NCBI GenBank assembly: GCA_040390065.1
Contig: JAZJZE010000004.1
Location: 64,001 to 128,000, forward strand
Direction of reading: 5' to 3'
Origin: a bacterium
GTDB lineage: Archaea > Thermoplasmatota > E2 > JACPAO01 > JAHFTW01
DNA: 64,000 nt
Shown here one piece after another: positions 13,642 to 53,924 of this stretch. Numbering within the stretch: position 1 is the first letter of the stretch; every line of letters starts with the position of its first letter. Made by a program: the position numbers and the translations under genes. Below the pieces are notes generated by a model. It was given only the letters and a program-made list of their open reading frames with translations. It was not told the origin of the DNA and ran no database searches.

Positions 13642-13890
13642 ATGACCCGCTTCGTCCCCCACACCGACCGCTCGCCCCTTCGCGTCCTGAAATCCGAGAC
13701 GCCGGGGGACGCCCTGTACCTCTGTCGGTGCGGCCTGTCCGGAAGCGGCGTCTTCTGCGATGGCAGCCACAAGGCGACCCTGGACGAGCAGCCGGGAACC
13801 GTGTACCATTACCAACGGGTGGACGGCAATCTCGTCCGCATCGCCGTCCCCGTCGCGCCGGTCGCGGCGCCGATCGAGGTGAAGCCTTGA
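13642..13890 (+). CDS. CDGSH iron-sulfur domain protein
   Basis: LCRCGLS...FCDGSH. Confidence 0.93.
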   Translation: MTRFVPHTDRSPLRVLKSETPGDALYLCRCGLSGSGVFCDGSHKATLDEQPGTVYHYQRVDGNLVRIAVPVAPVAAPIEVKP

Positions 13891-15856: not shown

Positions 15857-16576
15857 ATGCGCGTCATTGCATTGCTCTCCGGGGGAAAGGATTCCGTCTG
15901 CGCGGTTGAGACAGCGCGTGGCTTCGGCTGGGACGTCGTGGCGGGTCTCACGATGGTACCCGTCTCGGACGATGCGTGGATGTTCCACACGCCGAACCTA
16001 CACGTGGTGCGCGGTGTTGCCCAATGTCTTGGCCTCCCGCTCGTCGAATGCCCCGTCGCGGAAGGCCCTGACGAGGAGGTGCGCGGACTCGAACAGGCCC
16101 TGGCCAGTGCCAAGCGGTCCTTCAACCTCGACGGCCTCGTGTCGGGGGCACTTGCATCCGAGTACCAACGCACGCGGTTGGATGCCATTGGCCATCGTAT
16201 CGGCCTGGCGTCGTTCGCACCGCTCTGGCACAAGGCGCCCCTCCCCTACGTCGAGGGCTTGATCGCGGCAGGATACGACATGCGCTTCAGTCGTGTCGCC
16301 GCCGACGGCGTGCCCAACGAGTGGGCCGGGCAACGACTCGATGCCGGCAAGCTTCGCGCTCTCGCGGCGAGCCCCGGCAGGCCGCACGTGGCCGGCGAGG
16401 GCGGTGAATACGAGACGCTCGTCATGGACGCCCCATGCTATGCCCGTCGCCTCGTGGTAGACGCAGCCACGGTCGAGGCGGCGGCAAGTCGCGCGACCTG
16501 GCTTGTCACGTCGTGGCACACCGAAGCGAAGGGCGGGCAGGCGGGACCGGCGCGTCAGCCGGCCAAGGCCGTCTGA
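15857..16576 (+). CDS. dph6: Diphthine--ammonia ligase
   Basis: LSGGKDS, GALASEYQ, PLWH, GEGGEYET. Confidence 0.92.
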   Translation: MRVIALLSGGKDSVCAVETARGFGWDVVAGLTMVPVSDDAWMFHTPNLHVVRGVAQCLGLPLVECPVAEGPDEEVRGLEQALASAKRSFNLDGLVSGALASEYQRTRLDAIGHRIGLASFAPLWHKAPLPYVEGLIAAGYDMRFSRVAADGVPNEWAGQRLDAGKLRALAASPGRPHVAGEGGEYETLVMDAPCYARRLVVDAATVEAAASRATWLVTSWHTEAKGGQAGPARQPAKAV

Positions 16577-16968
16577 ACGAGGCCGATCAGGGCTTCTGGT
16601 TCGAAGGGCTTCTGGACGATTCGTTCGTGCGATGCGCTGGCGCCCAATTCGCGCACAAGTTCGCGGTCGAACGCCGTGACGATGATGTGCGGAATGCCCG
16701 GGTTCTGTTGGCTGACACGCTGCAGGAACTCGACGCCGTTCATGCCAGGCATGCGGTAGTCGGTGAGGATGAGGTCGATGGCCTGGTTCTGCAGAACCTT
16801 CAGGCCTTGAGGGCCGGACGCGGCGCTGTACACGTGCGCCTTGTCGACGAACGTCTCCAAAAGCGACTGGATGGCCTCGCAGATGTCCGGCTCGTCGTCC
16901 ACGACCAAGATGCTGCGCGCGCCACCCCTGCCCGCTGCCATGGCCTGGAGGAGGAGGTGCAAGGACAT
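16555..16968 (-). CDS. Stand-alone response regulator receiver
   Basis: ILVVDDE, D.RMPGMNG, TA, KP. Confidence 0.9.
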   Translation of the reverse strand: MSLHLLLQAMAAGRGGARSILVVDDEPDICEAIQSLLETFVDKAHVYSAASGPQGLKVLQNQAIDLILTDYRMPGMNGVEFLQRVSQQNPGIPHIIVTAFDRELVRELGASASHERIVQKPFEPEALIGLVQTALAG

Positions 16969-41116: not shown

Positions 41117-41192
41117 GGGAGATTAGCCGAGACAGGTCCAAGGCAGCGGACTCTTAATCCGCCATTCACCGGTTCGAATCCGGTATCTCCCG
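41117..41192 (+). tRNA. tRNA-Lys(CTT)
   Basis: Acceptor GGGAGAT/ATCTCCC, anticodon arm GCGGA-CTCTTAA-TCCGC, T arm ACCGG-TTCGAAT-CCGGT; CCA not encoded. Confidence 0.95.
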
Positions 41193-41314
41193 CTACTTTA
41201 CCCGCAAACCCTTTTCCCCCCTCGTTGCTTTCCCACTCTAATGGGACCCAACGGGGAAATCAGGAGTAGTTTCGCCTCACCCTCGACGGGAAATGACCCC
41301 CGGGCAGGTGCCTG

Positions 41315-41869
41315 ATGGCACTCGACAAGACGCTGACGATCAAGCAGCGCCGGGTCGACATCTACCTGCCCACCTTGGACGCGAGGGGCAAGTGGATTGC
41401 GGCCGCTGCCAAGCGCAACCTGAGCCTCTCCGCGTTCGTCTTCCAAGCCATGGAGATGGAGCTCCAGAAGGACGCCCTGGAGGGCCTGGAGCGGGCCAGT
41501 GCGGCAGACTTGGAGAAGGAGCTGACTGACCTTCGCTTGGCCAATGCTGACCTGCGCCGCCGCGTCGAGGAACTGAACGTCCTGAATCACCGCGCCGAAG
41601 CCGACCTGGCGGAATACCGGGCGCAACACATCGTCGGGCCCGAGCCGGTCAAGCACCTCGACCCCCGCCTCATCAGCATCCTATCCGAAGCCAAGGGACG
41701 CGACGGCCGCTTCCGCGCCCTCGACGTGGCCGAACTGCGGCGGGAGCTGCGCCTGAACCCCAAGAACCCCACCGAATTGCAGGCCCTGTCACGCCAACTC
41801 GAGTACCTCGAGGTCCACAAAGTCGTCCGGCGCTCGCCGAAGGGGTGGGTGTGGAATGACAAGGAGTAA
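41315..41869 (+). CDS. Integrase-associated accessory protein (RHH-like N-terminus, coiled coil, wHTH-like end)
   Basis: RVDIYLP...W..AA...LSLSAFV; heptad segment; overlaps the integrase start. Confidence 0.75.
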   Translation: MALDKTLTIKQRRVDIYLPTLDARGKWIAAAAKRNLSLSAFVFQAMEMELQKDALEGLERASAADLEKELTDLRLANADLRRRVEELNVLNHRAEADLAEYRAQHIVGPEPVKHLDPRLISILSEAKGRDGRFRALDVAELRRELRLNPKNPTELQALSRQLEYLEVHKVVRRSPKGWVWNDKE

Positions 41870-42785
41870 ACCTAACGCCGGGCTCCTCGAGGCCTACGAA
41901 CGGGACGCCAAACTGCAAGGCCTCTCCGACCTGACTCTGAAGGCCTACAAGCACGGCATCGAGACCTTCCTTGGCTACCTGGGGACTAATCCAGTAGCCA
42001 AGGTCACGATCAAAGACCTGGCCGAGTACCTTGGGAACCAGAAAGACCAGAAGCTGGACCCCCGCACCCTCAGCGGCCGCATCTCGGCCCTGTCCAGTTT
42101 CTTCGAATTCCTCGAGTTCGAGGGCAAGATCAAGGGCAACCCAGTGCCCGGCTTCCGTCGGCGCTACCTTGGGACGCTCCGGCGAGAACTCGGCAAGAAG
42201 AAGTCCGACCGGAAGCTCGTCGCGGTCGAGCAACTGCGGGCAATGCTACAGACCGTGGTCGACGCACGCGACCGCTGCATCATCGGACTGCTGGCCAAGA
42301 CTGGCATGCGCCGCGACGAACTCGTGCAACTCGATGTGCGCAGCATCGACCTCACCAAACAGACCGTCGACATCAAGCCGCACCCCAAGCGGACGAACTG
42401 CCAGGTGTTCTTCGACGACGAGACTGGTCGAGTCCTGCGGAGGTGGTTGGCGGTTCGCCGAGCACGCACGGGAACGGACGCCGGACCGCTGTTCGTCGGC
42501 CAGCGAGGAAACCGCATCAATGGGGATGCGGTGAATGACGCCGTCTCAGCCGCGGCCAGGAACGTGGGCCTGCACGACCCAGAAGGACCCTTGAAGGACC
42601 GCTTCACGGCTCACAATCTGCGGCATTTTTTCACCACGCACCTTCGACGTGGCGGCATGACGCGCGAGCACATAGCGTGGCTTCGCGGCGACGCCGGCAA
42701 CGACTCGATGGACGTGTACATGCACATCGACCCAGACCAGGTTCAACAGGCGTATCGGAGCGCGATTCCGCAACTCGGGCTCTGA
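41856..42785 (+). CDS. Tyrosine recombinase/integrase (archaeal, SNJ2-like LRGD motif)
   Basis: KTGMRRDEL, HNLRH, LRGD, SMDVYMH (catalytic Y). Confidence 0.93.
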   Translation: MTRSKPNAGLLEAYERDAKLQGLSDLTLKAYKHGIETFLGYLGTNPVAKVTIKDLAEYLGNQKDQKLDPRTLSGRISALSSFFEFLEFEGKIKGNPVPGFRRRYLGTLRRELGKKKSDRKLVAVEQLRAMLQTVVDARDRCIIGLLAKTGMRRDELVQLDVRSIDLTKQTVDIKPHPKRTNCQVFFDDETGRVLRRWLAVRRARTGTDAGPLFVGQRGNRINGDAVNDAVSAAARNVGLHDPEGPLKDRFTAHNLRHFFTTHLRRGGMTREHIAWLRGDAGNDSMDVYMHIDPDQVQQAYRSAIPQLGL

Positions 42786-42800
42786 CCGCGAAGGCGCACC

Positions 42801-43748
42801 ATGACAAGGCACAACCGTTCCCGCCCACCAGCGGACGAGCCCGAATTGCCGCCCCTGGAGGTGCGCCCGCGCGAAAGCGGCCGGGAGTCGGGTGATCAAG
42901 TTCGTGCAGCCGTCTACGCAAGGACAAGCTCTCGTCGGCAGCACACTGTCCCCGTGCAGCTTGAACTGTGCCGCAAACGCTGCCTCGACCGGGGCTGGCG
43001 TGTGTCCTATGCAATCAAGGACGAAGGCCTGAGCGGTGCGAGTGCGGAAAGGCCAGGATTCCAACGTCTTCTCGACCTAGCATCAGATGCCAAGATCGAC
43101 GTCGTGGTCGTGTGGAAAATTGATCGGCTAGCGCGGAGCCTAGCCCACGCAACGAGCATTGAGGAAATCTTCCGCGAGAACGGTGTAGCCATTCACAGTT
43201 GTACTGAACCAATCGACACGACCACGGCAACGGGCCGCTTCATGTTTGGAACCCTCGCCAATGCCGCTCAACTTGAGCGGGAGATCATAGGCGAGCGCTC
43301 CCGAATGAGCCTGCAGGATCTGGCACAAAGGGGTCGTTGGGCTCGTCCTCGAATCCCTTTCGGGTATCGCCGGAGCAAAGGCAAGAACATCCGGATTCAC
43401 GACGGCGAGGCCGCGGTCGTTCGGGCCGTCTTTGAAGCGTACCTCGCCGGGCAGAGCCTCAATGAGGCGTCATTCGCCCTGAACCGCGATGGCTTTACGT
43501 TCCGAGGCAAGCCTTGGACCCAGGAACGCGTCCGAATGATCATCGACAATCGAATTTGCGTAGGAGAGTTCAATGTCTCGGGAGTGCAGAAGCACCTGCC
43601 CAAGTTGGCCATTGTACCGCGTGAACTGGCGGAATCGGTCTGGACGCTCCGCAGCGAATCCCCCCGAAGTGGAAAGGCCGCAACGCCTGACGCGCGAGAA
43701 CTGGCAATTGACTCTGTCTTCAGGCAATACCTAGCCAGCCTCGAATGA
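42801..43748 (+). CDS. Serine recombinase (resolvase + recombinase domains)
   Basis: VYARTSS, DEGLSG..AERPGF, KIDRLARS, IPFGYR. Confidence 0.92.
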   Translation: MTRHNRSRPPADEPELPPLEVRPRESGRESGDQVRAAVYARTSSRRQHTVPVQLELCRKRCLDRGWRVSYAIKDEGLSGASAERPGFQRLLDLASDAKIDVVVVWKIDRLARSLAHATSIEEIFRENGVAIHSCTEPIDTTTATGRFMFGTLANAAQLEREIIGERSRMSLQDLAQRGRWARPRIPFGYRRSKGKNIRIHDGEAAVVRAVFEAYLAGQSLNEASFALNRDGFTFRGKPWTQERVRMIIDNRICVGEFNVSGVQKHLPKLAIVPRELAESVWTLRSESPRSGKAATPDARELAIDSVFRQYLASLE

Positions 43749-45173
43749 GGCCGGAACTCCTGGCAGTTTGGATTGCGCCGGGACGCGAAGTGTTGGTTCG
43801 ATTGGTGGGCTCGCCCCAATCCGCGACGGGTGCGCCTCCTCTTGAGCCGGACGTTGGCGGTTCTTCAGGAGCTGATTCATGTGATGGCCAGGATAGAGAG
43901 TGGTGTGGGCATCCTTAGGGCGCGTGCAGATGCGGATGTCGCGCCCGCCATGGTGGGGGTCACTTGCTACCCGGAGCCGGGTCGGAAAGCCACAGATGCC
44001 TCCATGGGGCATTTGTCGCCTGCATACGGGGCCTTCCGAGACTTTTTCGGCCTCGTCAATCACGTCACGGCCATGCTCTTCTATCAACTGCGTGCGCTTG
44101 GGTTTGCGGCGTGGCTTGCGCATCAACAGCGCAGCCCCCACGAGGCGACGCAACTCTTGGACTTGGGGGCGTGTGTAGACAGCCAGATGCTGCAACCTAG
44201 CGATGCCGTCGCTCTCCCAGCCCGTGACTAGATCATCGTTCACTTCCTCTACGAGACGGTCAATGCTCAACCCCGGCGCCACGGCGCGACGTCCTCGCAC
44301 CAGGGCACGTAGCGTCTCGAGCGTCGGCTTGCCGCGCATCTGGGTCAACAGCCCTTTTGCGAATTCGTCAGCATCTGCGTGCTTCTCGAAGGCCCACGGT
44401 GGTTCGCCTTTGACGGTCCGTTGCACCGTTTCGGTCGGCGACAGACGGCGGGTCGCATAGAAGGCGGTCATGCGCTGCTGACGCGCCAGCCCCTTGCGGT
44501 GGTAGGCCTCGAAGACCTCGGTGACGCTCTTGCCCCGTTTTGTGTTCTCATTCTCTGCCGTGGCAAGGGCCCGGGTAACCTCCGCGTAGTCCCTCGGAAT
44601 GCGAACGTCCTTCAGCAGAATTCTGTCGTCGAAGTCGTCGCCGTAGCCCAGGAGCTTGCCATCGTCACGGAGGAGCCATGCAACTTGGGTACCGCAGCGC
44701 ATGCAGCGGGCAAAGCGCGTAAGGTCGGAGACAACGAGCGCCCGTACGTCCTCCAGGGCCCGCAATGCGCCGACCGCGGCCGCAAAGCCCTCCCGGCCCT
44801 TGACGAACTGCCAGCCGCGTGAGTCCGTATCCCAGGCAATGGCAAGCGGTACCATGCTTCCAGCCCGGGTGGCGCGCAAGGTCCGGCGTGTCCAGGCACT
44901 GATGGCCAACTTCTCTTCGGCGTCGATGCTCCGCCTAACGTAGCCAATCACGAAACGCTCGGGCTTGCAATCGCATTCGGTCCCGTGCCGGCCGAGAATG
45001 TGTTCGTAAGCGGCCAAGTAGCCTAGCCCTTGAGGTGCCGAAACGTCGAGTCCAAGCCAGAGGATGCCGCCCTTCTCCCCGGCGTTCACTCTCTTTTGGA
45101 CCTCCTCCGCGACCTCATCCTCCATAACTTCCCACGGTGTTTCTTTAATATGAAAAACCTTGGATTTTTCCAA
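43731..45173 (-). CDS. Divergent serine recombinase-like protein with C-terminal Cys/His cluster
   Basis: IGYVRRS, LVVSDLTRFAR, AENE; C-terminal C..ICG..ICT..H; start uncertain. Confidence 0.6.
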   Translation of the reverse strand: MEKSKVFHIKETPWEVMEDEVAEEVQKRVNAGEKGGILWLGLDVSAPQGLGYLAAYEHILGRHGTECDCKPERFVIGYVRRSIDAEEKLAISAWTRRTLRATRAGSMVPLAIAWDTDSRGWQFVKGREGFAAAVGALRALEDVRALVVSDLTRFARCMRCGTQVAWLLRDDGKLLGYGDDFDDRILLKDVRIPRDYAEVTRALATAENENTKRGKSVTEVFEAYHRKGLARQQRMTAFYATRRLSPTETVQRTVKGEPPWAFEKHADADEFAKGLLTQMRGKPTLETLRALVRGRRAVAPGLSIDRLVEEVNDDLVTGWESDGIARLQHLAVYTRPQVQELRRLVGAALLMRKPRRKPKRTQLIEEHGRDVIDEAEKVSEGPVCRRQMPHGGICGFPTRLRVASDPHHGGRDIRICTRPKDAHTTLYPGHHMNQLLKNRQRPAQEEAHPSRIGASPPIEPTLRVPAQSKLPGVPASFEAG

Positions 45174-45564
45174 GAAGTTGGCCTTCTCCCTTCTGGCCGA
45201 GAAGCCAGAGGAATTGAAGGGCGTCTACAAGGCAATCAACAGTATGGCCGCAAGTTGGGACGCCATCAAGAAGGATGTGGCCGAAACCGTCCCGCAGCCG
45301 AAGGCGAAGGCCAAACCGTTCGGAACTCCCGGCAAGAGGAGCGCCCTACTGCTTGATGACGAAGACCAAGCATCAACCGCCACCGCTGACATTTCTGCGG
45401 TGGCAGACGATCCAGCGATGCGCAAGAAGGTTGCAGACGCAACGATCGATGCCATTACTGAAGCCGAGGACAAGCGCAAAGCACAGGATAAGAAAGAAAA
45501 GCCGCTAGCCTTGCTCAAGAACGCTAACAACAATCTGGCGATTGCAAGGGCCGCTTCTTCTTGA
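45160..45564 (+). pseudogene. Probable fragment of a Lys/Ala-rich helical protein
   Basis: AT-richer, protein-like composition, weak TTG start three codons after an in-frame stop. Confidence 0.4.
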
Positions 45565-45931
45565 CTCGTCATGAACATTCGGTGGCCGTTGCAAACAAGC
45601 GATACCAGTTGCACGTTTGGATGGACATTAAGGGAGGGCCCGAACTGCTTGTGGTATCGCGTGGCGATTTGCTCCAAAACTCACCGGAGGACCGGCGCGG
45701 AAGTGCATGGCAAGATGCCGAGATTTCGATCGCCAGCTTGTACCATTCCTAGGAGGCCATGCCGACCGGGGTCAAGGGAGGTTGGCGTCGACCGTCCACG
45801 CAGGCGGGAATTTGGCCGCGCTCGAGAACCTGCAGGATACGTCTTCAGGGCCATCTTCGTGCTCGTCGGCTGGAACGTCTAACCCCCAAGGCTGCGTGGG
45901 CGGGGTCGCCGCCCACGCAACCCGTGTTTGC

Positions 45932-46087
45932 TTAGTCGCTGAGGACAGCGGCTGCGATAGCAAGGATTCCGCCGATGGCGATTGCGCCAAGGACGAATGC
46001 TCCTGTTTCGCTCGTAGTGATCCTCGTGCACAGTTTGTCGTAGCACAGGTCCACCTCGCCGAAGTGTTGGTGCGGAGTGTCTTTCAC
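45932..46087 (-). CDS. 51-aa C-terminal TM microprotein
   Basis: Strong SD AGGAGGTGA before GTG; MKDTPHQHFGEVDLCYDKLCTRITTSETGAFVLGAIAIGGILAIAAAVLSD. Confidence 0.6.
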   Translation of the reverse strand: MKDTPHQHFGEVDLCYDKLCTRITTSETGAFVLGAIAIGGILAIAAAVLSD

Positions 46088-46135
46088 GGATTCACCTCCT
46101 TCCACCGACCGGGGGAAAGGGGGTGAGGTGGGGGC

Positions 46136-46393
46136 TCATTCCTTGCCCTCCGGGTGCAGCAGGTCTGTTACGGTCTCGATTGCTGCCTTGTTGGTCTGGA
46201 GCGTGCGGAGGAGGACCGCGATGGCATGGAAGAAGTCCTTCCAGCTCAAGTCGAGGTCGTTCTTCAGCTCCGTGATTGTCTTGAGGTCCGCCGCGTAGAA
46301 TTCCACGAGAGTGCGGTGCGTCTTGTCCTTGTTGCGTGTGAACAAGGGCACGAGCGACTGAAGCTCTGGCGGCAGGGTTGTCCCGTCAGCCAT
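46136..46393 (-). CDS. 85-aa hypothetical protein
   Basis: GGAGG SD; overlaps the upstream microprotein stop. Confidence 0.6.
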   Translation of the reverse strand: MADGTTLPPELQSLVPLFTRNKDKTHRTLVEFYAADLKTITELKNDLDLSWKDFFHAIAVLLRTLQTNKAAIETVTDLLHPEGKE

Positions 46394-46508
46394 CGTTGGC
46401 CTCCATGATGGCCTTCAGCGCCAGGAGGCCTAGGGCTATGCCGCCGAACAGGATGATGGCCTTCGCCACGTCCTCGCCGTTGACGCCGGAACCTTGGGGG
46501 TTAGCCAT
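46386..46508 (-). CDS. 40-aa single-TM microprotein
   Basis: MANPQGSGVNGEDVAKAIILFGGIALGLLALKAIMEANDG*. Confidence 0.55.
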   Translation of the reverse strand: MANPQGSGVNGEDVAKAIILFGGIALGLLALKAIMEANDG

Positions 46509-46906
46509 AGTAGTACGCTGAATGTATCAGTCAGAGTATCAGATAAGGTTTGTCCTCCACGTGATCGCGATGTGTCGACCTGGCGCATTTGTGAGCTCCC
46601 CGTCTTTGCAGGGCTTTGCTTCAGGTGGAAGCGTTCACAAATCCGGCCCTCGCCTTGGCGCCGACAGGGGGAACGCGAGCCATTCACGCAGCGTTCACAC
46701 CACGAGGATTGCGGCTTCCCGTGGCTCCCCAAATACCCCACACAGTTCAGCGAGTTCGTGACCGCTGACGTCCAACTTCCCTTATGCGACTGGGCACATC
46801 CCGGTCGCGGGTTCCCCCAGCAGGCAATGGCGCGCCTCCAGCACGACCACGCGGAGGAGTGCCCGTGGGCCTAGAAAGCGCCACGCCGGGCTCGCCCCTC
46901 CTGGAC

Positions 46907-46945
46907 TTACGGGCAAACTCTAGTGACAATCCGGTCTGCCCGGCC
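46907..46945 (+). repeat. Internal att-like site 1
   Basis: TTACGGGCAAACTctagTGAC-AATCCGGT-CTGCCCGGCC; core AATCCGGT equals the first 8 nt of the tRNA-Lys att repeat. Confidence 0.8.
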
Positions 46946-47050
46946 GTCTTCCCGTAGGAAACCCCGGCCAGGGGGTTGGCATTCTTCATGCTTGAGGCCG
47001 CTCCCAGCGGGCGCGGTCGTTCCGCGCGCAAACGGCATCGTCGGGCATTC

Positions 47051-47893
47051 CTACGTTTCGTCGATTGGCCTGGCCTCGTCCCAATAGTGGAGGAACAGGT
47101 CGCGGCACCAAGCCACGAACGCCGGGTCACCCCCGACGAACGCGTTCCGGAAGTCAATCTGGCCGGCCGCACTCTCGAACTGCAAAATGGCCAGGCCGTC
47201 CGTCACGGCAATAGCGACTGGCCCCCGTTGCAGAAGCCTGGTCTTGAAGACGGGCCCGAAGCGTTTCGGGAAGGCCTTCAACACCAAGGCGAGCTCGCTT
47301 TCGAGCAGGATGGCTCGTGCATCGGCTCGGGAGGTTTTCACGCGCTCCGCGATGAGGGCGTTGAGTCGGATCTGGTCGCCAGTGGGACCTGGTGCGCCGA
47401 TGATCCATTGGCCGTAGAACCGGGAGTCAATCGTTTCCGTCAGGCGACCAAACACGGCGCCAATCTCGAACGGGTCGCTCAGAAGCTGGGCCTTGCCGAG
47501 GACGTGCAGGTTCGCTAGGAACGGTCGGGGCAGGGACTCGATCGGATGGGCCTGGAAGAAGCTGGAATGCCGCGCCAAGAATTCCAACGATTCCGCGTGC
47601 GTCAAGGCTGCGTTTGACACGCCGGCCAGGCGGAACAAGCCGTCCTGCCCCTTGGTCACCAGGCCAGACTCGACGAGCCTTGCCAGATTGCGAGAAACTT
47701 CGCTTTCCGTGCCTCCAGCGCGGTGCGCGATGTCCGTGTACCGCAGAGGGCCGTCTTGCAGGGACTGGGCAATGGCGAGCCGCCCTCTGGCGAACAGTTC
47801 TTGCGCCAGCCCGGCGGCATCGGCCAAGCGACCCGGTTCGACCGGGAGACTTCCGGAACCACCGTCGGAATCGCTCTTGAGACTCCGACGCAT
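47051..47893 (-). CDS. Archaeal ArsR-like wHTH regulator with C-terminal effector domain
   Basis: RLAIAQSL..GP..Y..IA..EVSRNLARL..GLV; FFQAH.I..LP; W..DLF.HYW. Confidence 0.8.
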   Translation of the reverse strand: MRRSLKSDSDGGSGSLPVEPGRLADAAGLAQELFARGRLAIAQSLQDGPLRYTDIAHRAGGTESEVSRNLARLVESGLVTKGQDGLFRLAGVSNAALTHAESLEFLARHSSFFQAHPIESLPRPFLANLHVLGKAQLLSDPFEIGAVFGRLTETIDSRFYGQWIIGAPGPTGDQIRLNALIAERVKTSRADARAILLESELALVLKAFPKRFGPVFKTRLLQRGPVAIAVTDGLAILQFESAAGQIDFRNAFVGGDPAFVAWCRDLFLHYWDEARPIDET

Positions 47894-47957
47894 AGGGGTT
47901 GACTGGCATCACGGTAGATGAAGGCGTCCTCGACGTCTTTTCGATGCGACGTGCACC

Positions 47958-48833
47958 ATGATCGCGACCTCCACCACGACGACAGACCAGAACAAGGCCA
48001 CCGTGCGACGGTTCCTCGAGCGCGTGGTGAACCAGAATGAGTACCAGGTCGTGGACGAGTTGTTCGCTCCTGAATACGTGCTTCACATCGCGGGCGACCC
48101 TGAGCCAAAGGTCGGCCGAGACCACGTCCGCTATGTTGCCAAGATGTTCCGGGCGGCGTTTCCGGATTGGAAGAATGCGGTCGACCAACTCGTCATGATG
48201 GCGGAGGGGGATTGCGTGATGACGCGCTGGAGGGAATCGGGGACCCACCGCGGCGAATTTCAGGGGGTTGCACCCAGCGGCCGGCGCGTGATCTTGGAGG
48301 GCATGGATATGTTCCGTTTCGCTGGCGGGAAGATCGTCGAGCAATGGCTGGAGGCAGACCTGGCCGGATTTCGGCGTCGCCTGGTCCAAAGGGTGCCAGG
48401 GGCGAGCCCGTTGACCGATTCAGCCCTGCAGGATTGGGCGCGCCGCATGAAGGACGACATCATCAACGCTCACGACCCGGCTGCGGCTGCGCTCTACTAT
48501 GCGCCCACGTTTTCCACGCGCAATCCAATCCCAGGACGGCGCCCCGGCCTCGACGGCCTGCAAGAGGCGCTCCGGGAGTTCTTCATCGCCTTCCCCGATG
48601 TGCAGGAGACCGTGGAGGAGGTCGTCGCCGACGGCGACCACATCGCCATGGTCGGTACCATCCGCGCCACTCACGGCGGCCCCTTTGCAGGGGTCCCGGC
48701 CAGCAACCGCCGCGTGACGTTCCGCATCTTCGAGCAGCACCGCCTCGAGGCCGGCAAGATTGCCGACGGCTGGGTGTTCATTGACGTGCCTGGGCTGATG
48801 CAGCAAATTTCCCCAGCCGCACTGGGCACATGA
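47958..48833 (+). CDS. Tandem SnoaL-like ester cyclase (NTF2 fold) protein
   Basis: NKATVRRF, AFPD, GTH.GEF.G..PSG, GKIVE.W; domain duplicated. Confidence 0.9.
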   Translation: MIATSTTTTDQNKATVRRFLERVVNQNEYQVVDELFAPEYVLHIAGDPEPKVGRDHVRYVAKMFRAAFPDWKNAVDQLVMMAEGDCVMTRWRESGTHRGEFQGVAPSGRRVILEGMDMFRFAGGKIVEQWLEADLAGFRRRLVQRVPGASPLTDSALQDWARRMKDDIINAHDPAAAALYYAPTFSTRNPIPGRRPGLDGLQEALREFFIAFPDVQETVEEVVADGDHIAMVGTIRATHGGPFAGVPASNRRVTFRIFEQHRLEAGKIADGWVFIDVPGLMQQISPAALGT

Positions 48834-49074
48834 GAAACGGGGCGAACCACTTCCGGGTTCCGTGGAATCCTTTTCGAAGAGGTTCAATTCGTGGCCGAGT
48901 AGGTCATTCGGCAAATCGGGAAGCGCCTGCAGGACAAATCGGAAGCTCGATTTTGGTTGGATTCGAGCAGGAACCGCAATCATGGCTGCCTCCCCATGGG
49001 GCACCGCATCTTGACTTGACCGCCGCTACCGCGTTCGGGGTTGGATGGAGTCCCAGCTCCACGACTTGAGGCCC

Positions 49075-49365
49075 TTAGACGAGGCCGCGGTTGTGAAGCT
49101 CCTCGGCCACGGCGACAAGCATGGCTGGGCGTTCCACCTCCGGGTAATGCGTTGAGCGCCACTCCGACATGATGAACCCGCTCCGGACCACCTTGGCGTC
49201 CCGCTCCAAGCGATTCAATGCGCCCCGAACCCGGGCCACCTGCGCCTGCGTCGCCCATTCCCCATGGAGCTCGTTGGCAATCTGCCTGGCCTCCATCCAC
49301 CGCCCCCGATGGGCCGGCCCATTGAGGATTGCCGCCACTTCCCGTTGCGCCTTGCCCTGGCTCAT
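49075..49365 (-). CDS. Small wHTH-like hypothetical protein
   Basis: EARQIANEL...VRGALNRLERDAKV. Confidence 0.5.
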   Translation of the reverse strand: MSQGKAQREVAAILNGPAHRGRWMEARQIANELHGEWATQAQVARVRGALNRLERDAKVVRSGFIMSEWRSTHYPEVERPAMLVAVAEELHNRGLV

Positions 49366-49461
49366 GTGCATAGATGGAGGCGCCGCGTTCTTAGGATTAC
49401 CGCGAAACAAACGGGGGTTTTGCGAACGGCTCGGTCTGCGTGAAAGCAACGATTGCACCGC

Positions 49462-50430
49462 CTAGGTGCGGGTGCCCGTGATGCCCTCGTAGACGGCGCG
49501 CACTGCAGGGTCTGCCGCGTCTGGGACCCGGTTGAGGCGGTCCTGGATGAGCGGCATCATGAGTCGCAGACCGCCGACCTCGTGACTGGCCGGCCCAGCG
49601 GGCGGCTCGGGGCCGCACACCAGCACTGCGGGCGCGCAGGCCCAGGGGTTCACATCCGTCGGCACGGTGTAGTAGGTGACGTGCATGCCGGCTGAGGCCA
49701 GTGCTTGGTAGAGGCGCTCGGCCTGCTCGGCTGAAACCCAGGTGTCTCCGGGGGCGTAGACGAGGTAGGCGCGCTGCAAGCCCTTCGACGCCATCTGGGG
49801 TGCGAGGTCGACGGGGGACCGCTGGGAGTAGGCTGCGGGGACCTGGCTAGGAGTTCCGCCGGTCTCCTGTTCGATGAGGGACTGCACGGCGTGGTCTTCT
49901 TGCCACGTGGCAGCCAGGTCGGCTACACCCGCGCCATCGAGCCAGTAGTCGAACGTGCCATTGGGCGCCTGCGCGACGGCCATGCCAGACACTTCGCCGC
50001 CCATGCTCCAACCGTACAGGATCGTGAGATTGACGCTCGGCCAGGCCGCCTTCACGGCCAGGGTTGCCGCCACCGTGTCGTTGGCGCCCGCCTGCACCTT
50101 CCATGGGTGGTCGCCGCGGTAGTCCATTGCGACGGCCAGAGCTCCACCCGCAGCGACTTGTTCGAGGCCAGTACGGAACAACGTCGCGTTGGTGCCGAAT
50201 GGATGAGCGAAAACGACGAGCGAGGTGGGGTTAGCGGCGGTTGGGACGGCAAGAAGTCCCGTTGCGTTCATGCCGTCAACCACGAGCGAGATAGCATGCA
50301 CGCCTTGCTCGCGAGGAATCGCGGGCAACGGCGGCACCTGGACAGAGCCGTGGTCCGCTTGGCCGGCGGGACCGGTGCATCCACTAGCCAGAAGGGCTAT
50401 CGAAAGTAGGAGCAGGGGGCGCGTCGCGAT
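49462..50430 (-). CDS. Alpha/beta hydrolase (S9/prolyl oligopeptidase-like) lipoprotein; canonical start codon absent
   Basis: GWSMGG nucleophile, D.WV, HE; in-frame lipobox LLASGC upstream of the first canonical start, beginning at ATC 50430. Confidence 0.75.
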   Translation of the reverse strand: MATRPLLLLSIALLASGCTGPAGQADHGSVQVPPLPAIPREQGVHAISLVVDGMNATGLLAVPTAANPTSLVVFAHPFGTNATLFRTGLEQVAAGGALAVAMDYRGDHPWKVQAGANDTVAATLAVKAAWPSVNLTILYGWSMGGEVSGMAVAQAPNGTFDYWLDGAGVADLAATWQEDHAVQSLIEQETGGTPSQVPAAYSQRSPVDLAPQMASKGLQRAYLVYAPGDTWVSAEQAERLYQALASAGMHVTYYTVPTDVNPWACAPAVLVCGPEPPAGPASHEVGGLRLMMPLIQDRLNRVPDAADPAVRAVYEGITGTRT

Positions 50431-50586
50431 GGTTCAGGGGGTCGCCAGCGGCCCCATAAGCCTTGGCTCGGTACGCCCGCTCGCCGGAAGAAGCCATGGC
50501 AAGCAGGCCCGGAACCTGGCATGCAGCCCCCATCGACCTGGCATGTACCGGCACGTCACCGGCAGCACCGCGTCCGCGCCGCAGAG

Positions 50587-50677
50587 GGCGCAACCGCCAA
50601 TCTCCCGCCGATTTGCCCCGCACCATGTACAGGAGGTACCGCTAGGATTTACGGGCAAACTTCCTTGACAATCCGGT
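50587..50677 (+). repeat. Internal att-like site 2; 91-bp direct repeat of the attR flank
   Basis: 83/91 ungapped identity with 53618-53708; ends TTACGGGCAAACTTCCTTGAC-AATCCGGT, followed by CTGCCGCCCGGCC. Confidence 0.9.
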
Positions 50678-50809
50678 CTGCCGCCCGGCCATGCATGCAG
50701 CCGACCGTCGCCTACAGCGCAATCGCTTTGGGAGCTTTGGATTGTACGGCAACCCCGTGAGGGGCGACCCTCGAAATCCTTTTCCGGACCGAGGGCCGTG
50801 GCGAGAAAC

Positions 50810-51034
50810 ATGGTACCGATCCCCTGCCCCCGATGCCAGTCCGGCATGATCCCAGCGGCGGCGGACACCCTCCAATGCCTGGCGTGCGGCTACCGAGCGG
50901 CAATGGCCCTTCAACCGCTGCCCAACGAGGGGTACATGCCGGTCGAAAGCCGCAACGACGAGAACCAGCGTCGGTGCCTCCGCTTTTCCGCTAGATGCCG
51001 ATATCTAAAGAGCGCCGCCTTCCTGTTGATGTGA
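50810..51034 (+). CDS. Small Zn-ribbon protein
   Basis: CPRC...CLACG. Confidence 0.5.
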   Translation: MVPIPCPRCQSGMIPAAADTLQCLACGYRAAMALQPLPNEGYMPVESRNDENQRRCLRFSARCRYLKSAAFLLM

Positions 51035-51240
51035 ACCCCCGGAAGGCAGGTGAACCCCCGGTGACCGCAAGCCCCACCGGAAGGGGCATTGGGCTGTCGG
51101 CCGGCGTCTTAGAAGCAGGCCTCGACCACGCTCCCGATGGAATGCTGCTCATCAATGCCAAGCGGGAAATCGTCTTTGCCAACCGCCGCGCTGTCGATTG
51201 GGCCACAGGGCGTGGTGCGGTTATCGACGGCAGCACCTAG
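50995..51240 (+). pseudogene. PAS-domain N-terminal fragment
   Basis: LDHAPDGMLLINAKREIVFANRRA, then early stop. Confidence 0.5.
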
Positions 51241-51375
51241 GAATTGCCCGGAGACGACCGCCTGCCCTGCAATAGTTGCGTCGGCGGCCTGGATGGTCCC
51301 GGCGCTTTCCGCTCCGCCCGGTAGGGCAAGGAGAAGAAGGATGAGTAGGCCAACAGACAGCATCTCCTGCTGCAT
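51109..51375 (-). pseudogene. Probably truncated secreted protein
   Basis: Signal peptide LSVGLLILLLLALPGGAES; runs into the PAS fragment. Confidence 0.4.
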
Positions 51376-51410
51376 GCCCCGTCCTAGGGGCGGGCTCGAT
51401 TTCTCATTTG

Positions 51411-51596
51411 CTAGTTGCCGATAATCAGGCACTCGGGATGGAAATAGTAGTCCGGAGGGTCAAGAGAATAGGCGAACCACGTGCAGTATGGGGGCAAAGG
51501 GGGATGATCTGACGGGGGCACAGGCTCATCCGCCACGACCATCGGGGCGGCCAATATCAATAGGCATCCAACGAGAGCATACGCTAGTGTTTTCAT
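51411..51596 (-). CDS. Small secreted protein with Cys-bounded tail
   Basis: Signal peptide; PYCTWFAYSLDPPDYYFHPECL. Confidence 0.6.
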   Translation of the reverse strand: MKTLAYALVGCLLILAAPMVVADEPVPPSDHPPLPPYCTWFAYSLDPPDYYFHPECLIIGN

Positions 51597-51983
51597 GCAT
51601 TTCACCGGCTGCCCGAAGCAGCCGGCTGACCCGAAGCGGGCGCGCTATTTTGCGCGATTTCGCGGCAACGCGCTGGCCAAGCAAACGCTTGTTTGAGCGG
51701 CTTTTCGGACCACGTCAACGTTCCATTGCCTGCGGTTCTTCATGACATCGGGTCGACGGCCCGCCGCGACGCCGCCGAAGGCAATTTGGCCGTGTAGGCG
51801 GCCGCCTTGCCTGGTGAGGCCGCGGGCGGCTAATGGCGGACTTAATTGGCGCGGCGGCCTCGGCGCCGAAAACCAATGACTGTCCGACAGTATGTTTCGT
51901 CTACCATGGTTCCATGGAGCGCGGCTCCGTTGTCCGCCGGAACTCTTTTCGCCTTCGCCCAGGATGCTCGCGCTGGTCCTACC

Positions 51984-52190
51984 ATGACCATCGCCCGCAC
52001 CCTCGTCTTGACTGGCTTGCTGATTCTGACCGCCGCTACGCTGGCACCGATGGCCAGCGCCCAGCCGGACAACGTGTACGTGTGCGCCTACGGCGTCAAC
52101 GGCGGCTGCGAACCCGGCCACATCGCCGAGGTCCACGTCAAGGGCCACGTCGTTTACGTCCCGGACCCGTGCTACACGACCGCCTGCTGA
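51984..52190 (+). CDS. Small secreted 4-Cys peptide
   Basis: MTIARTLVLTGLLILTAATLAPMASA then QPDNVYVCAYGVNGGC...PDPCYTTAC. Confidence 0.65.
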   Translation: MTIARTLVLTGLLILTAATLAPMASAQPDNVYVCAYGVNGGCEPGHIAEVHVKGHVVYVPDPCYTTAC

Positions 52191-52227
52191 AGATGGGTGC
52201 CATCGGGTGGACAGCAGTCCTAAAGTA

Positions 52228-52261
52228 GTTGATTCGCTAATAAGCTAATTGATGAATCAAC
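52228..52261. promoter_or_regulatory. Inverted repeat GTTGATTC-N18-GAATCAAC over the MNT start (candidate operator)
   Basis: Perfect 8-bp inverted repeat in the AT-rich promoter region. Confidence 0.4.
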
Positions 52262-53052
52262 CCGGCGGGGGCGCCTCCCGAGACGAAATCATCGCCATCC
52301 TGCTGGTTGCGGCAGCGGCAGGCGGCCTAGGATATGCCTTAGGCCGGGCCTCGGCAAGGGCTAACCCAGCACAAGCTGGCTTGCCTCCGCATGCCCTACT
52401 TGCCCCCACACCGCTCAAGCAGATTGCCGCCGAAGCTGGGATGCAGCCGCCAACCGCGTTGGCCCACCTGCGCAAGCTGCAGGACCAAGGCAAGCTCCAA
52501 CGCATCCAAACCTCCGAGGGACCGCGATACGCCGTCCTTCCGTACGTCAGCTGCGAGTGGACCGATCCGGACCACGGAATCCAGACCGCCTGGCAAAGCA
52601 CGCACTCCGTGGACTGGCGGTTCCCCCTCGTGTCGCGTGTCCCGGACGCCTCGGCTCAAGACTTCCTCTACGAATGGCTTGACCGTGCCCAGGCGCGCGG
52701 CCTCCTGCCACCGGCCCGCTCCAGGTTTGAGGCCCAATCCCCCAAGCCGCATCTTCTCCAAGCCGTGGTCTACGGGTCCTGCGCTCGCGGCCCCGCCCCT
52801 TCGAAGTCGGACGTCGACATCCTGCTGTACGGAGACATCCCAAAGACGCAGGTCGAGAAACTCAAGGACCTCGGCCACGAGATTGCCCTAAAGGGCGGAA
52901 GACCCCCCGACATCCGCTCGATTGACGCGGCCGGCTGGTCCAAAGCAACGCCCGCCTTCCGGGAATCCATTCAGCGAGAAGGCCGAACCGTGTACTCGAA
53001 CGAATTCGGCGGCCTTTTCCTGGAACGGCCCCTCGGCGCCCAACATGCCTGA
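52252..53052 (+). CDS. wHTH + minimal nucleotidyltransferase (MNT antitoxin-like) with N-terminal hydrophobic helix
   Basis: PLKQIA..AGM..PTA..HLRKL; YGSCARG...SDVDILL. Confidence 0.85.
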   Translation: MNQPGGGASRDEIIAILLVAAAAGGLGYALGRASARANPAQAGLPPHALLAPTPLKQIAAEAGMQPPTALAHLRKLQDQGKLQRIQTSEGPRYAVLPYVSCEWTDPDHGIQTAWQSTHSVDWRFPLVSRVPDASAQDFLYEWLDRAQARGLLPPARSRFEAQSPKPHLLQAVVYGSCARGPAPSKSDVDILLYGDIPKTQVEKLKDLGHEIALKGGRPPDIRSIDAAGWSKATPAFRESIQREGRTVYSNEFGGLFLERPLGAQHA

Positions 53053-53404
53053 GAGTGCACTCCTGCAGCTCGCGGAGAGCTATCTCCGAACGGCCCGGGC
53101 GGCGCTCGAGGCAGGCGATATTGCGCCGGCCTACGAGACCGCGCGCACCGCCTGCGAACTGGCCGCCAAGGCAATCCTCGACCAGCGCGGGATTCCCACG
53201 AGCGGCAAGGAACACAACGTGGCTCCTCAGCTTGTGCAGGCTGGAGCATGGCCCGGCGGCGATCCGGGCAAGCGACTCTCCAAGTTCCTCAACGACTACA
53301 CGCGGGGCGTCTACGGCGTTGGCGAGACCATTGCTCGGAAAGAAGCCGAACGCGGCGTCGCCCTCGCAGAACAGATGATCAAGAAGGCCAAGGGTCATGG
53401 CTAG
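53045..53404 (+). CDS. HEPN domain protein (toxin partner of MNT)
   Basis: AESYL..A, ACELAAKA.L, HN, TRGVYG; overlaps the MNT stop. Confidence 0.85.
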   Translation: MPESALLQLAESYLRTARAALEAGDIAPAYETARTACELAAKAILDQRGIPTSGKEHNVAPQLVQAGAWPGGDPGKRLSKFLNDYTRGVYGVGETIARKEAERGVALAEQMIKKAKGHG

Positions 53405-53617
53405 GCCGTGGCCAGGGAAAACAATGCTCGGCGCGAACCGAACTACAGGGTTCGCGACTCGACCAGCCGTGCCATGCAGATTCCCAGTTCGACGCGCGCT
53501 TTCTCCTCTCCTGCCACCCCGGAGGGCTGCTAACAATCGATGCGGAACTCGCGCAAACGAGACGGCCTGGCCTGAGCGCCTTGAGTGGACCCTCCGGTTT
53601 GGGAATCCGCCGCCGAT

Positions 53618-53718
53618 GGCGCAACCGCCATTCTCCCGCCGATTTGCCCCGCACCATGTACTGGAGACACCCCTACCGTTTACGGGCAAACTTCCTTGAC
53701 AATCCGGTATCTCCCGCT
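53618..53718 (+). repeat. attR with upstream arm (att-like site 3)
   Basis: Arm TTACGGGCAAACTTCCTTGAC followed by the full tRNA 3' copy AATCCGGTATCTCCCGCT. Confidence 0.9.
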
Positions 53719-53924
53719 CAAGCATCGCCGGCGCGAAGCGCTCGGCGGCTGCAGCCGGGGAATACCGGTTCGCCGAGGCGCCAGGCAAAGCAGCGCCGAT
53801 GGTAACCCTGCGGTTCTGCTTGCGGGGCCGCCGCGCCGAATCCGGTCTCTCCCGCTCTCTGGCATTGGCGCGTGCGACGTATCCGCCCATATCCTGATAT
53901 CCCGCTTCATCTCAGGCCGATTCC

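What the first reader, a model, noticed from the sequence alone, without database searches (positions are those of the whole stretch)
41177..53718. Candidate integron-like cassette array at tRNA-Lys: one integrase, three repeated att-like sites, two integrase-less cassettes
Seen: the island is bounded by an 18-bp tRNA-Lys 3' repeat. The motif TTACGGGCAAACT-N4-TGAC-AATCCGGT occurs three times (46907, 50649, 53680), always 21 bp from arm start to core. Only the last copy continues into the tRNA 3' end (ATCTCCCGCT). Both internal copies continue CTGCC(GCC)CGGCC. Sites 2 and 3 share a 91-bp arm (83/91), and a related arm TTTACCCGCAAAC lies just right of attL (41197). The sites split the island into a recombinase module (to 46935), cassette A (46936-50677: regulator, ester cyclase, hydrolase) and cassette B (50678-53708: secreted peptides, MNT-HEPN). 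Neither cassette encodes a recombinase. Inference: ordinary tandem integration into the restored tRNA would leave a full tRNA 3' end at each internal junction. The observed junctions fit circular cassettes (arm-core-CTGCC) added one after another at attR by the resident SNJ2-like tyrosine integrase. That would be an archaeal gene-capture platform that works like an integron but uses different sites.
Basis: partly seen in the sequence, partly recalled or inferred. Interest (0 to 1): 0.88.

Follow-up and report, generated by a model that had tools for sequence, protein, structure and literature searches.

The report
Patchwork mobile island at archaeal tRNA-Lys
A 12.5-kb mobile island sits in a tRNA-Lys gene of an uncultured archaeon and is built from three modules joined at repeated recombination sites, which fits the known way islands grow by stacking better than it fits an integron.

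Summary
The two internal copies lose identity to the tRNA at the same base, after AATCCGGT.

- a serine recombinase next to the tyrosine integrase;
- a fourth, older att relic 138 bp beyond attR;
- a relic "right half-core + P' motif" inside the 101-nt arms of modules A and B;
- the arm motif is a quasi-palindrome that flanks the att core across a class-wide family of tRNA-targeting elements. Each element carries an accessory gene plus a Xer-like integrase.

My reading is a composite island made by site-specific accretion. Module 1 is a small self-sufficient cryptic integrated element. Modules A and B are non-autonomous passengers carrying att arms, like bacterial cis-mobilizable elements (CIMEs).

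Integron membership fails every feature I could test. The arm+core motif occurs in no other genome or metagenome searched, so cassette turnover cannot be judged. Only assembled contigs were available, so circles could not be sought. This is a new variant of a known kind, of moderate interest.

The parts
41117..41193 (+). tRNA-Lys(CTT), the integration target
   Evidence: ARAGORN; Rfam RF00005 at 62.7 bits. It is 80-100% identical in the 11 genus and family genomes that matched.
41177..41194 (+). attL core AATCCGGTATCTCCCGCT. Its first 8 nt, AATCCGGT, are shared by all five att-like copies.
41197..41209 (+). P' motif TTTACCCGCAAAC, 2 nt after the core. It is the inverted form of the P-arm motif.
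   Evidence: An equivalent palindrome (TTTAC-N3-GTAAA type) lies right after the tRNA in 12 of 14 family loci and upstream of the accessory gene in G134.
41315..41869 (+). 184-aa accessory protein with a predicted coiled coil and a C-terminal winged helix. It overlaps the integrase start.
   Evidence: No Pfam, NCBIfam or PHROG hit. A homologue lies directly upstream of the integrase in 15 of 19 loci. AlphaFold model pLDDT 79.8. Foldseek top hits are winged-helix domains at E 0.04-0.2, none at or below 0.001.
41856..42785 (+). Tyrosine integrase, Xer-like, 309 aa
   Evidence: Phage_integrase 1.4e-23 plus SAM-like N domain. Best NCBIfam hit is XerA_Arch at 157.8 bits, below the cut-off of 220. 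R, HxLRH and Y align with XerA 5hxy.
42801..43748 (+).
   Evidence: A 50% identical homologue lies 1.9 kb downstream of the related integrase in G134:C229.
43731..45173 (-). 480-aa ORF of unknown function
   Evidence: Weak Resolvase match, E 0.0045, 17.5 bits, below the cut-off of 23.3
46907..46945 (+). Site 1: P motif-N9-AATCCGGT followed by CTGCCCGGCC. Junction between module 1 and module A.
47051..47893 (-). Module A: HTH (ArsR/FilR1-like) regulator
47958..48833 (+). Module A: protein with two SnoaL-like domains
   Evidence: SnoaL 6.3e-64, two stretches
49462..50337 (-). Module A: alpha/beta hydrolase (Peptidase_S9-like)
   Evidence: Homologues at 43-51% aa identity in 6 same-genus genomes, without the neighbouring genes.
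50577..50690 (+). 101-nt arm of module A with site 2 (motif 50649-50677), then CTGCCGCCCGGCC. The arm holds a relic at 50601-50623: TCTCCCGCC-GA-TTTGCCCCGCA, i.e. right half-core plus P' motif.
52249..53052 (+). Module B: HTH + MNT nucleotidyltransferase (MntA-like)
53045..53404 (+). Module B: HEPN protein
   Evidence: HEPN 5.4e-09
53608..53718 (+). 101-nt arm of module B with site 3 (motif 53680-53708) and the full attR core at 53701-53718. The arm holds the same relic at 53632-53654.
53719..53856 (+). 120-nt spacer plus an older att relic, AATCCGGTCTCTCCCGCT, at 53839-53856. Together they are the ancestral 'tRNA-spacer-repeat' structure of the locus.
   Evidence: A second copy of the tRNA 3' end lies about 100-175 bp downstream in G126, G134 and G124. 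It lies behind an unrelated 23-kb island in G135.

Best explanation
The locus is a composite genomic island built by site-specific accretion at the tRNA-Lys att site.

Module 1 (41194-46935, 5.7 kb) is a self-sufficient cryptic integrated element. It belongs to a class-wide family with the layout tRNA, then a 184-aa DNA-binding-like accessory protein, then a Xer-like tyrosine integrase. Here it also carries a serine recombinase. Joining site 1 to attL gives its attP: TTTACGGGCAAAC-N9-AATCCGGTATCTCCCGCT-AC-TTTACCCGCAAAC. That is a core flanked by two inverted copies of one motif.

Modules A (3.7 kb) and B (3.0 kb) encode no recombinase. Each ends in a related 101-nt arm with the same motif, the same spacer and AATCCGGT. 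I take AATCCGGT as the crossover (overlap) segment, and I take the internal sites as hybrid junctions: the P arm of the left module, then the crossover, then the left end of the right module.

A and B are therefore non-autonomous passengers, like bacterial cis-mobilizable elements (CIMEs). They can move only through the integrase of module 1. They most likely move together with it, because only attL x site 3 rebuilds the tRNA.

Shown: the sites, their uniqueness, the family architecture, and the absence of recombinases in A and B.
Inferred: the crossover position, that the tyrosine integrase made the junctions, and any mobility today.
Not resolved: the order of arrival, and whether A and B ever had integrases.
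For: 1. Three exact motif copies against 0 expected, unique in the genome.
2. Both internal sites lose identity to the tRNA after the same base and continue with similar CTGCC(GCC)CGGCC. AATCCGGT is 8 nt; by my recall that is within the usual 6-8 bp overlap size of tyrosine recombinases.
3. The 29-bp block is 29/29 identical between sites 2 and 3. The rest of the arm is 62/72.
4. Family context:
   - integrase homologues in 28 of 197 class genomes;
   - the accessory gene directly upstream in 15 of 19 loci;
   - a tRNA directly upstream in 16 of 20 loci;
   - a palindrome of the same type right after the tRNA in 12 of 14 loci, and again left of the core at the two attR sites found.
5. The arms of A and B contain TCTCCCGCC-GA-TTTGCCCC. 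This pattern occurs only 3 times in the genome; the third is attL itself. So these ends descend from complete att sites.
6. Decay gradient: an intact element lies next to the tRNA, then two recombinase-less modules, then a 138-bp remnant with a mutated core. Module 1 is the most foreign in GC content: 61.2%, against 64.7% and 63.6% for A and B, and 66.1% and 64.6% for the flanks.
7. A solitary arm (1 mismatch in 20 specified positions) lies 5 nt from the tRNA-Lys relic in a second species, G135, with no integrase nearby. So arms of this family persist as debris.
8. Accretion of integrase-less att-flanked elements with integrase-bearing ones is documented in bacteria (passages of PMC5704250). 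Tandem arrays at re-used sites are documented in archaea (passages of PMC6563490, and PMC8371274).
Against: - There is no comparative support. The arm+core motif and the 101-nt arm were found in no other genome.
- The closest integrase is only 51% identical and is not at a tRNA.
- No integrase remnant lies in A or B, so decay from autonomous elements is not shown.
- The left ends of A and B have no P' motif. An element with such an att site would break the tRNA if it integrated alone, so the history needs either insertion at attR or arrival as a ready-made composite.
- The 3-nt difference (GCC) between the two right halves argues against them being a strictly spaced binding site.
- The two complete family islands available (L079 13.4 kb, L083 9.4 kb) show no internal arm+half-core sites by my heuristic, so arrays are not a family habit.
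- The serine recombinase could have contributed to rearrangements. Its sites are unknown.
Confidence: 0.6

Rival explanations
1. This is the first reader's model: a dedicated gene-capture platform. Integrase-less circular cassettes (arm - AATCCGGT - CTGCC...) are excised by recombination between neighbouring sites. The resident integrase then inserts them one after another at attR, as in an integron but with different sites.
For: - Each module ends in a conserved unit of about 101 nt, and each starts with CTGCC(GCC)CGGCC. A circle would therefore carry one compact att region of about 120 nt.
- The junctions break at one base.
- The 29-bp block is conserved beyond the rest of the arm.
- Insertion at attR avoids breaking the tRNA.
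- No recombinase or remnant lies in A or B.
Against: - Only two 'cassettes' are known anywhere. The motif is absent from 196 class genomes, 400 phylum genomes, genome contigs and metagenome contigs.
- The modules are multi-gene, on both strands, with their own regulators.
- The integrase is not IntI-like.
- The arms do not fold as single strands: z from -1.0 to +1.8.
- The arms carry a relic of a full att site, which points to descent from ordinary integrated elements.
- No vehicle or replication gene for free cassettes was identified.
- The two complete family islands have no internal sites.
Confidence: 0.15
2. The locus is a graveyard of three independently integrated full elements. A and B once had their own accessory-integrase modules and full att sites, and later lost them by deletion. 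The internal sites are decayed attR/attL hybrids with no present function.
For: - Tandem arrays with decayed members are the rule in bacteria (PMC5704250 passages), and tandem arrays are reported in archaea.
- The relic half-core plus P' motif lies inside the arms.
- Older relics lie at 53837 in this genome and in G135.
- The GC content of A and B is closer to the host than that of module 1.
Against: - Two independent deletions would both have to start exactly after AATCCGGT and both end at a similar CTGCC(GCC)CGGCC.
- No integrase or accessory-gene remnant is detectable.
- The 29-bp block shows no decay between sites 2 and 3.
Confidence: 0.15
3. The repeats arose by local duplication or gene conversion of the attR region, or through the serine recombinase. 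They did not arise by tyrosine-integrase recombination between separate elements.
For: - Sites 2 and 3 share 101 nt at 90% identity.
- A serine recombinase is present.
Against: - Site 1 shares only the two conserved blocks, with a different 4-5 nt spacer and unrelated flanks. That is the pattern of a conserved binding site, not of a duplication.
- The bodies of A and B are unrelated to each other.
- The motif belongs to the att architecture of the tyrosine-integrase family.
Confidence: 0.05

Closest known systems
Accretion of cis-mobilizable elements (CIMEs) with ICEs/IMEs at tRNA and other genes in streptococci (ICESt1-type; Pavlovic 2004 and Bellanger 2011, as cited in PMC5704250)
   Same: Integrase-less segments keep att sites. 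They lie in tandem with an element that carries the cognate integrase. Chimeric internal att sites occur, and the composite can be moved as a whole. One example in that review is also at a tRNA-Lys 3' end.
   Different: This case is in an archaeon and has no conjugation genes. The internal sites keep only the left 8 bp of the core instead of a full att. Descent of A and B from autonomous elements is not shown, and no excision data exist.
Archaeal cryptic integrated elements and tandem iMGE arrays (Krupovic et al. 2019, PMC6563490; review PMC8371274)
   Same: Small elements with XerC/D-like integrases sit in the 3' ends of tRNA genes. Their att repeats are short (median 17 bp there, 18 bp here). 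Re-use of one site gives arrays. A CopG/RHH DNA-binding arCOG is among the 20 most common iMGE arCOGs listed there.
   Different: In the passages I read, those reports describe whole elements in tandem. They do not describe recombinase-less modules bounded by arm+half-core sites. I did not establish that this genome belongs to the taxa studied there.
Integrons, including archaeal ones (Ghaly et al. 2022, PMC9668308, abstract read)
   Same: One recombinase sits beside an array of recombinase-less units separated by repeated sites.
   Different: There is no IntI-type integrase, no attC-like folding site and no attI next to the integrase gene. The units are multi-gene with their own regulators. 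No cassette pool was found.
SNJ2-type integration system of haloarchaea (Wang et al. 2018, PMC5861418, abstract read)
   Same: A tyrosine integrase acts at a tRNA gene with a short direct repeat (14 bp there). Small accessory proteins are co-transcribed with the integrase.
   Different: SNJ2 has two accessory ORFs. Here there is one 184-aa protein upstream, overlapping the integrase start. Homology to IntSNJ2 was not tested. A tblastn of the phage collection gave 17 records, none of them archaeal.
IMEX elements that stack at dif using Xer recombinases (for example the CTX/TLC arrays of Vibrio). This comparison is recalled, not from a call.
   Same: Recombinase-less elements stack in tandem at one site. 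Their att sites match the target on only one side of the overlap.
   Different: Those elements use the host's chromosomal XerCD and dif. Here the recombinase is element-borne and the target is a tRNA.

Membership tests
Integron | IntI-type tyrosine recombinase | tested here: not met
   NCBIfam integron integrase TIGR02249 scored 41.9 bits (cut-off 265) and NF011946 scored 20.6 bits (cut-off 435). The best model was XerA_Arch at 157.8 bits.
Integron | attC sites that fold as single-stranded imperfect hairpins | tested here: not met
   ssDNA folds of the three arms on both strands gave z-scores of +0.96, +1.77, +0.54, +0.47, +0.27 and -1.03 against 200 shuffles each.
Integron | attI and a promoter next to intI, with cassettes inserted there | tested here: not met
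   The first internal site lies 4.1 kb downstream of the integrase stop, behind a serine recombinase and further ORFs.
Integron | Cassettes mostly consist of one promoterless ORF plus a site | tested here: not met
   The modules are 3742 and 3031 bp. Each has three or more genes on both strands, including HTH regulators.
Integron | A pool of many cassettes sharing the site type | tested here: not met
   The motif is absent from 196 other class genomes, genome contigs and metagenome contigs. The arm is absent from 400 phylum genomes. One solitary arm was found in G135.
CIME-type accretion (cis-mobilizable element beside an integrase-bearing element) | The segment is bounded by att sites of the same type as the neighbouring element | tested here: met
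   The same P motif, spacer and AATCCGGT occur at 46907, 50649 and 53680.
CIME-type accretion (cis-mobilizable element beside an integrase-bearing element) | No recombination or transfer genes of its own | tested here: met
   Pfam found no recombinase domains. tblastn with 9 recombinase and accessory queries gave a best E of 0.02.
CIME-type accretion (cis-mobilizable element beside an integrase-bearing element) | Derived by decay of an autonomous element | tested here: inconclusive
   A relic of right half-core plus P' motif lies in both arms. There is no gene remnant and no relative with an intact version.
CIME-type accretion (cis-mobilizable element beside an integrase-bearing element) | Excision or transfer together with the neighbour | not testable with these tools
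   Only assembled contigs of the runs were on hand, and they showed no joints.
Class-wide accessory + Xer-like integrase tRNA-integrating elements (defined here) | Gene order tRNA, then accessory gene, then integrase | tested here: met
   Window. The accessory gene is upstream in 15 of 19 loci. A tRNA is upstream in 16 of 20 loci.
Class-wide accessory + Xer-like integrase tRNA-integrating elements (defined here) | A quasi-palindromic motif flanks the core on both sides | tested here: met
   Window positions 41197 and 46906/50648/53679. Present in 12 of 14 loci at attL, at attR of L079 and L083, and in the G134 attP-like site.
SNJ2-type integrase family | Sequence relationship to IntSNJ2 | not tested
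   No tool returned an SNJ2 sequence. tblastn against 50,697 phage records gave 17 matches, all at or below 27.6% identity and none archaeal.
XerA (archaeal chromosome-dimer resolvase) | Score above the NCBIfam equivalog cut-off | tested here: not met
   157.8 bits against a cut-off of 220. The gene sits in an island beside a tRNA, not at a dif-like site.

The most novel reading that the evidence does not exclude
Modules A and B belong to a class of recombinase-less, multi-gene archaeal cassettes. Their roughly 120-nt att region is two inverted copies of the family motif plus the 8-bp crossover. This region lets a resident Xer-like integrase, helped by its accessory protein, excise them as circles and stack them at attR without touching the tRNA. 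That would be a double-strand, tRNA-anchored counterpart of an integron.
Probability: 0.15. Interest if true: 0.75.

Novelty: new variant of a known kind. Interest (0 to 1): 0.42.

Why it matters
If the accretion reading is right, the locus is a clear archaeal example of how a small integrase-bearing element can gather and carry recombinase-less gene modules through shared att arms. Here the modules are a regulator with a cyclase and a hydrolase, and an MNT-HEPN pair. That process is well described in streptococci but barely described in archaea.

The work also defines a testable att architecture for a widespread, uncharacterised archaeal integrase family. The architecture is a core flanked by two inverted copies of one motif, together with a dedicated accessory protein. 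The family is present in 28 of 197 species genomes of the class.

The bolder integron-like reading would matter more, but it rests on a single locus.

Tried and rejected
- Motif searches outside the genome. The pattern search over the class with up to 2 mismatches found only the own genome. Exact-pattern scans of genome contigs and metagenome contigs found 0. BLAST of the 123-nt arm over 400 further phylum genomes gave only three chance-level hits of 22-35 nt.
- Close integrase relatives. The metagenome-contig scan gave one locus at 28% identity. The genome-contig scan gave none. So orthologous arrays could not be compared.
- Reads. The one run search found the probable source run and two runs of the same study, all kept as contigs. 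Laying them showed the island in one contig, no joints and no variants. A second run held a few exact 151-nt pieces of module A at depth 2. This says nothing about circles or cassette variation.
- A tRNA whose 3' end would explain CTGCC...: none among the 52 tRNA calls of the genome. AATCCGGTCTGCC occurs only at the two internal sites.
- Homology between the G136 region upstream of tRNA-Lys (which holds MNT-HEPN homologues) and the arm of site 3: none.
- Internal arm+half-core sites in 14 family loci: none apart from the L079 attR. This was a heuristic that needs an 8-mer of the core within 45 nt of a TTTA..TAAA motif.
- Direct repeats bounding the G134:C229 element: no att pair found.
- Fold of the accessory protein. 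Foldseek gave only winged-helix hits above E 0.04. The PDB profile search gave nothing below E 0.03. The RHH reading of its N-terminus is by eye only.
- Taxon. Archaeal by diphthamide synthase and 16S. Topoisomerase IB was not found. I did not name the lineage.
- Supplementary tables of PMC6563490 and PMC5861418 (lists of elements and att sites) were not opened. They might list similar arrays.

Full report
**Observation**

The window is part of contig C4 of an 89%-complete archaeal genome of 2.68 Mb. It carries diphthamide synthase and an archaeal 16S gene.

ARAGORN and Rfam place tRNA-Lys(CTT) at 41117-41193. The 18-mer AATCCGGTATCTCCCGCT occurs at 41177 and 53701 and nowhere else in the genome.

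The motif TTACGGGCAAACT-N4-TGACAATCCGGT has three exact matches, at 46907, 50649 and 53680. One hundred dinucleotide shuffles gave a mean of 0.00. These are its only copies in the genome.

- Site 3 runs on into the tRNA 3' end.
- Sites 1 and 2 run on into CTGCCCGGCC and CTGCCGCCCGGCC.
- Sites 2 and 3 agree at 83/91 positions, and at 91/101 over the longer stretch.
- Site 1 agrees with them only in the two conserved blocks: 25/29, dropping to about 50% further out.

1. Module 1 has a second recombinase. Next to the 184-aa ORF and the tyrosine integrase (41856-42785) lies a serine recombinase at 42801-43748, with Resolvase and Recombinase domains. A 480-aa ORF with a weak, sub-threshold resolvase match follows.

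2. A fourth att-like copy, CGAATCCGGTCTCTCCCGCT, lies at 53837-53856, 138 bp right of attR.
   - The same layout occurs in G126, G134 and G124: tRNA-Lys, about 100-175 bp of spacer, then a repeat of the tRNA 3' end. In G135 it lies behind an unrelated 23-kb island.
   - That is 5 of the 12 genomes I examined, with up to 3 substitutions allowed in 18 nt.
   - The window's spacer aligns with that of G135.
   - The locus therefore carried an old relic before the present island arrived.

3. Pattern TCTCCCGC[CT]-NN-TTT[AG]CCC occurs three times in the whole genome.
   - One copy is attL, where it is the right half of the core plus the P' motif.
   - The other two lie inside the 101-nt arms of sites 2 and 3, 28 nt left of the P motif.
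   - The ends of A and B therefore hold the remains of a complete att site.

**The integrase family**

Homologues of the integrase occur in 28 of 197 species genomes of the class at E <= 1e-20. The best is 51% identical, in G134 of the same genus.
- In 15 of 19 fetched loci a homologue of the 184-aa protein lies directly upstream.
- In 16 of 20 loci a tRNA gene lies directly upstream of that pair. The targets are Gln, Glu, Ser, Gly, Leu and Arg tRNAs.
- In 12 of 14 oriented loci the first bases after the tRNA are a palindrome of the type TTTAC-N3-GTAAA.
- At the only two attR sites I could find (L079 at 13.4 kb, L083 at 9.4 kb), the same palindrome lies 10-14 nt left of the core.

The window's TTTACCCGCAAAC (41197) and TTTACGGGCAAAC (the three arms) are the GC-rich version of this motif, in inverted orientation to each other. 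G134:C229 has CTAGGGCAAAC-16 nt-ATTTGCCCGTAAAG just upstream of its accessory gene and no tRNA. That looks like an unrecombined attP.

So the 'arm' is a family-wide part of the att site, flanking the core on both sides. Joining site 1 to attL gives a complete attP for module 1.

The integrase keeps R, HxLRH and Y when aligned with XerA 5hxy. It scores best with the archaeal XerA model but below its cut-off.

The accessory protein has no family hit. Its model (pLDDT 79.8) shows two N-terminal helices, a 40-residue helix and a C-terminal winged helix. Foldseek support is weak: E 0.04-0.2. That it binds the motif is my inference.

**Reading the internal sites**

All five att-like copies share AATCCGGT, and both internal sites diverge right after it. 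By my recall, 8 nt is within the usual size of a tyrosine-recombinase overlap. Two independent junctions breaking at one base, with similar sequence after the break, argue for site-specific exchange rather than random decay.

The 29-bp block is 29/29 identical between sites 2 and 3, while the other 72 arm positions differ at 10. By my arithmetic (62/72)^29 is about 0.013. This suggests constraint or recent conversion.

That holds only if A and B carried a full copy. Whether a newcomer enters at attL or at attR, the final order of arms is the same: P1|P'A, PA|P'B, PB|B'.

What the junctions do show is that the att regions of A and B lack the tRNA right half and lack a P' motif. Such a unit would break the tRNA if it integrated alone. 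It therefore either entered at attR or arrived already joined to an element that repairs the tRNA.

Only attL x site 3 restores the tRNA today. I therefore expect the island to move, if at all, as a whole.

**Is it an integron-like platform?**

Each integron feature I could test fails:
- The integrase is not IntI-like.
- The arms do not fold as single strands better than shuffles.
- The first site is 4.1 kb from the integrase gene.
- The units are 3.7 and 3.0 kb with several genes on both strands and their own regulators.
- There is no pool of sites anywhere else.

The two complete family islands have plain attL/attR ends with no internal sites by my heuristic.

The one other occurrence of the arm is a solitary, inverted copy 5 nt from the tRNA-Lys relic in G135. 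It is surrounded by transporter and toxin-antitoxin genes and has no integrase nearby. The reversed control pattern hit twice in the 197 genomes. The position next to the relic is what makes the G135 hit meaningful. It shows that arms of this family survive as debris.

Several points fit the accretion-and-decay picture described for bacterial ICE/IME-CIME tandems (PMC5704250, passages), and tandem arrays are noted for archaea (PMC6563490 and PMC8371274, passages):
- the relic inside the arms;
- the old relic at 53837;
- the GC values, with module 1 at 61.2%, A at 64.7%, B at 63.6% and the flanks at 66.1% and 64.6%.

Against a simple graveyard: no integrase remnant is left in A or B, and the junctions are too regular.

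**Verdict**

The best-supported reading, about 0.6, is a composite island: one small autonomous element plus two non-autonomous, att-bearing modules joined by site-specific recombination.

The integron-like capture platform is not excluded, at about 0.15. It rests on one locus and fails the membership tests.

Nothing could be learned about present activity.

Noticed in passing
window 53719-53856; L055 (G126), L063 (G134), L064 (G124), L049 (G135): Downstream of tRNA-Lys, several species of the genus and family keep a spacer of about 100-175 bp followed by a second copy of the last ~20 nt of the tRNA. This looks like a very old mini-island or landing pad. Shorter repeats of the acceptor end are also seen in G132, G125 and G131.
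   Followed up: partly
G135:C4:85075-108042 (L048, L049): An unrelated 23-kb island sits in the same tRNA-Lys of a sister species. It has repeated GGGTTAGAA motifs at both ends, a degenerate right junction, a DDE transposase-like ORF and a 1576-aa ORF. It has no homologue of the window's integrase.
   Followed up: partly
G135:C4:108152-108195 (L054, L096): A solitary copy of the P arm (TTGCGGGCAAACTTCCGCGACA) lies inverted, 5 nt after the tRNA-Lys relic core. It is next to ParE-like, MFS and Pst genes. How an inverted arm got there is unexplained.
   Followed up: partly
L088 (G134:C229) 13675-13728 and 16562-16615: A sharply bounded 54-nt direct repeat (91% identity) occurs twice, 2.9 kb apart, downstream of the related accessory-integrase-serine-recombinase module. 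It shows no similarity to the window's att motif. It might mark module boundaries there.
   Followed up: no
L043 (G136:C15) 397-1355: Homologues of the module B MNT and HEPN genes (46% and 50% aa identity) lie directly upstream of tRNA-Lys in G136. No arm homology accompanies them.
   Followed up: partly
L074-L086, first 30 nt after the tRNA: In the AT-rich family members the P' palindrome is followed at once by TTTATATA-like sequence, which looks like a TATA box for the accessory-integrase operon. The motif may therefore double as an operator.
   Followed up: no
window 52862-53890 (-): A 342-aa ORF runs across attR and the arm of site 3. It has no family hit and overlaps the HEPN gene on the other strand. 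It is probably not a gene.
   Followed up: no
G000:C9:471398-471649: Two tRNA-Tyr(GTA) genes with identical 3' ends lie 109 bp apart. This may be another att-type duplication.
   Followed up: no
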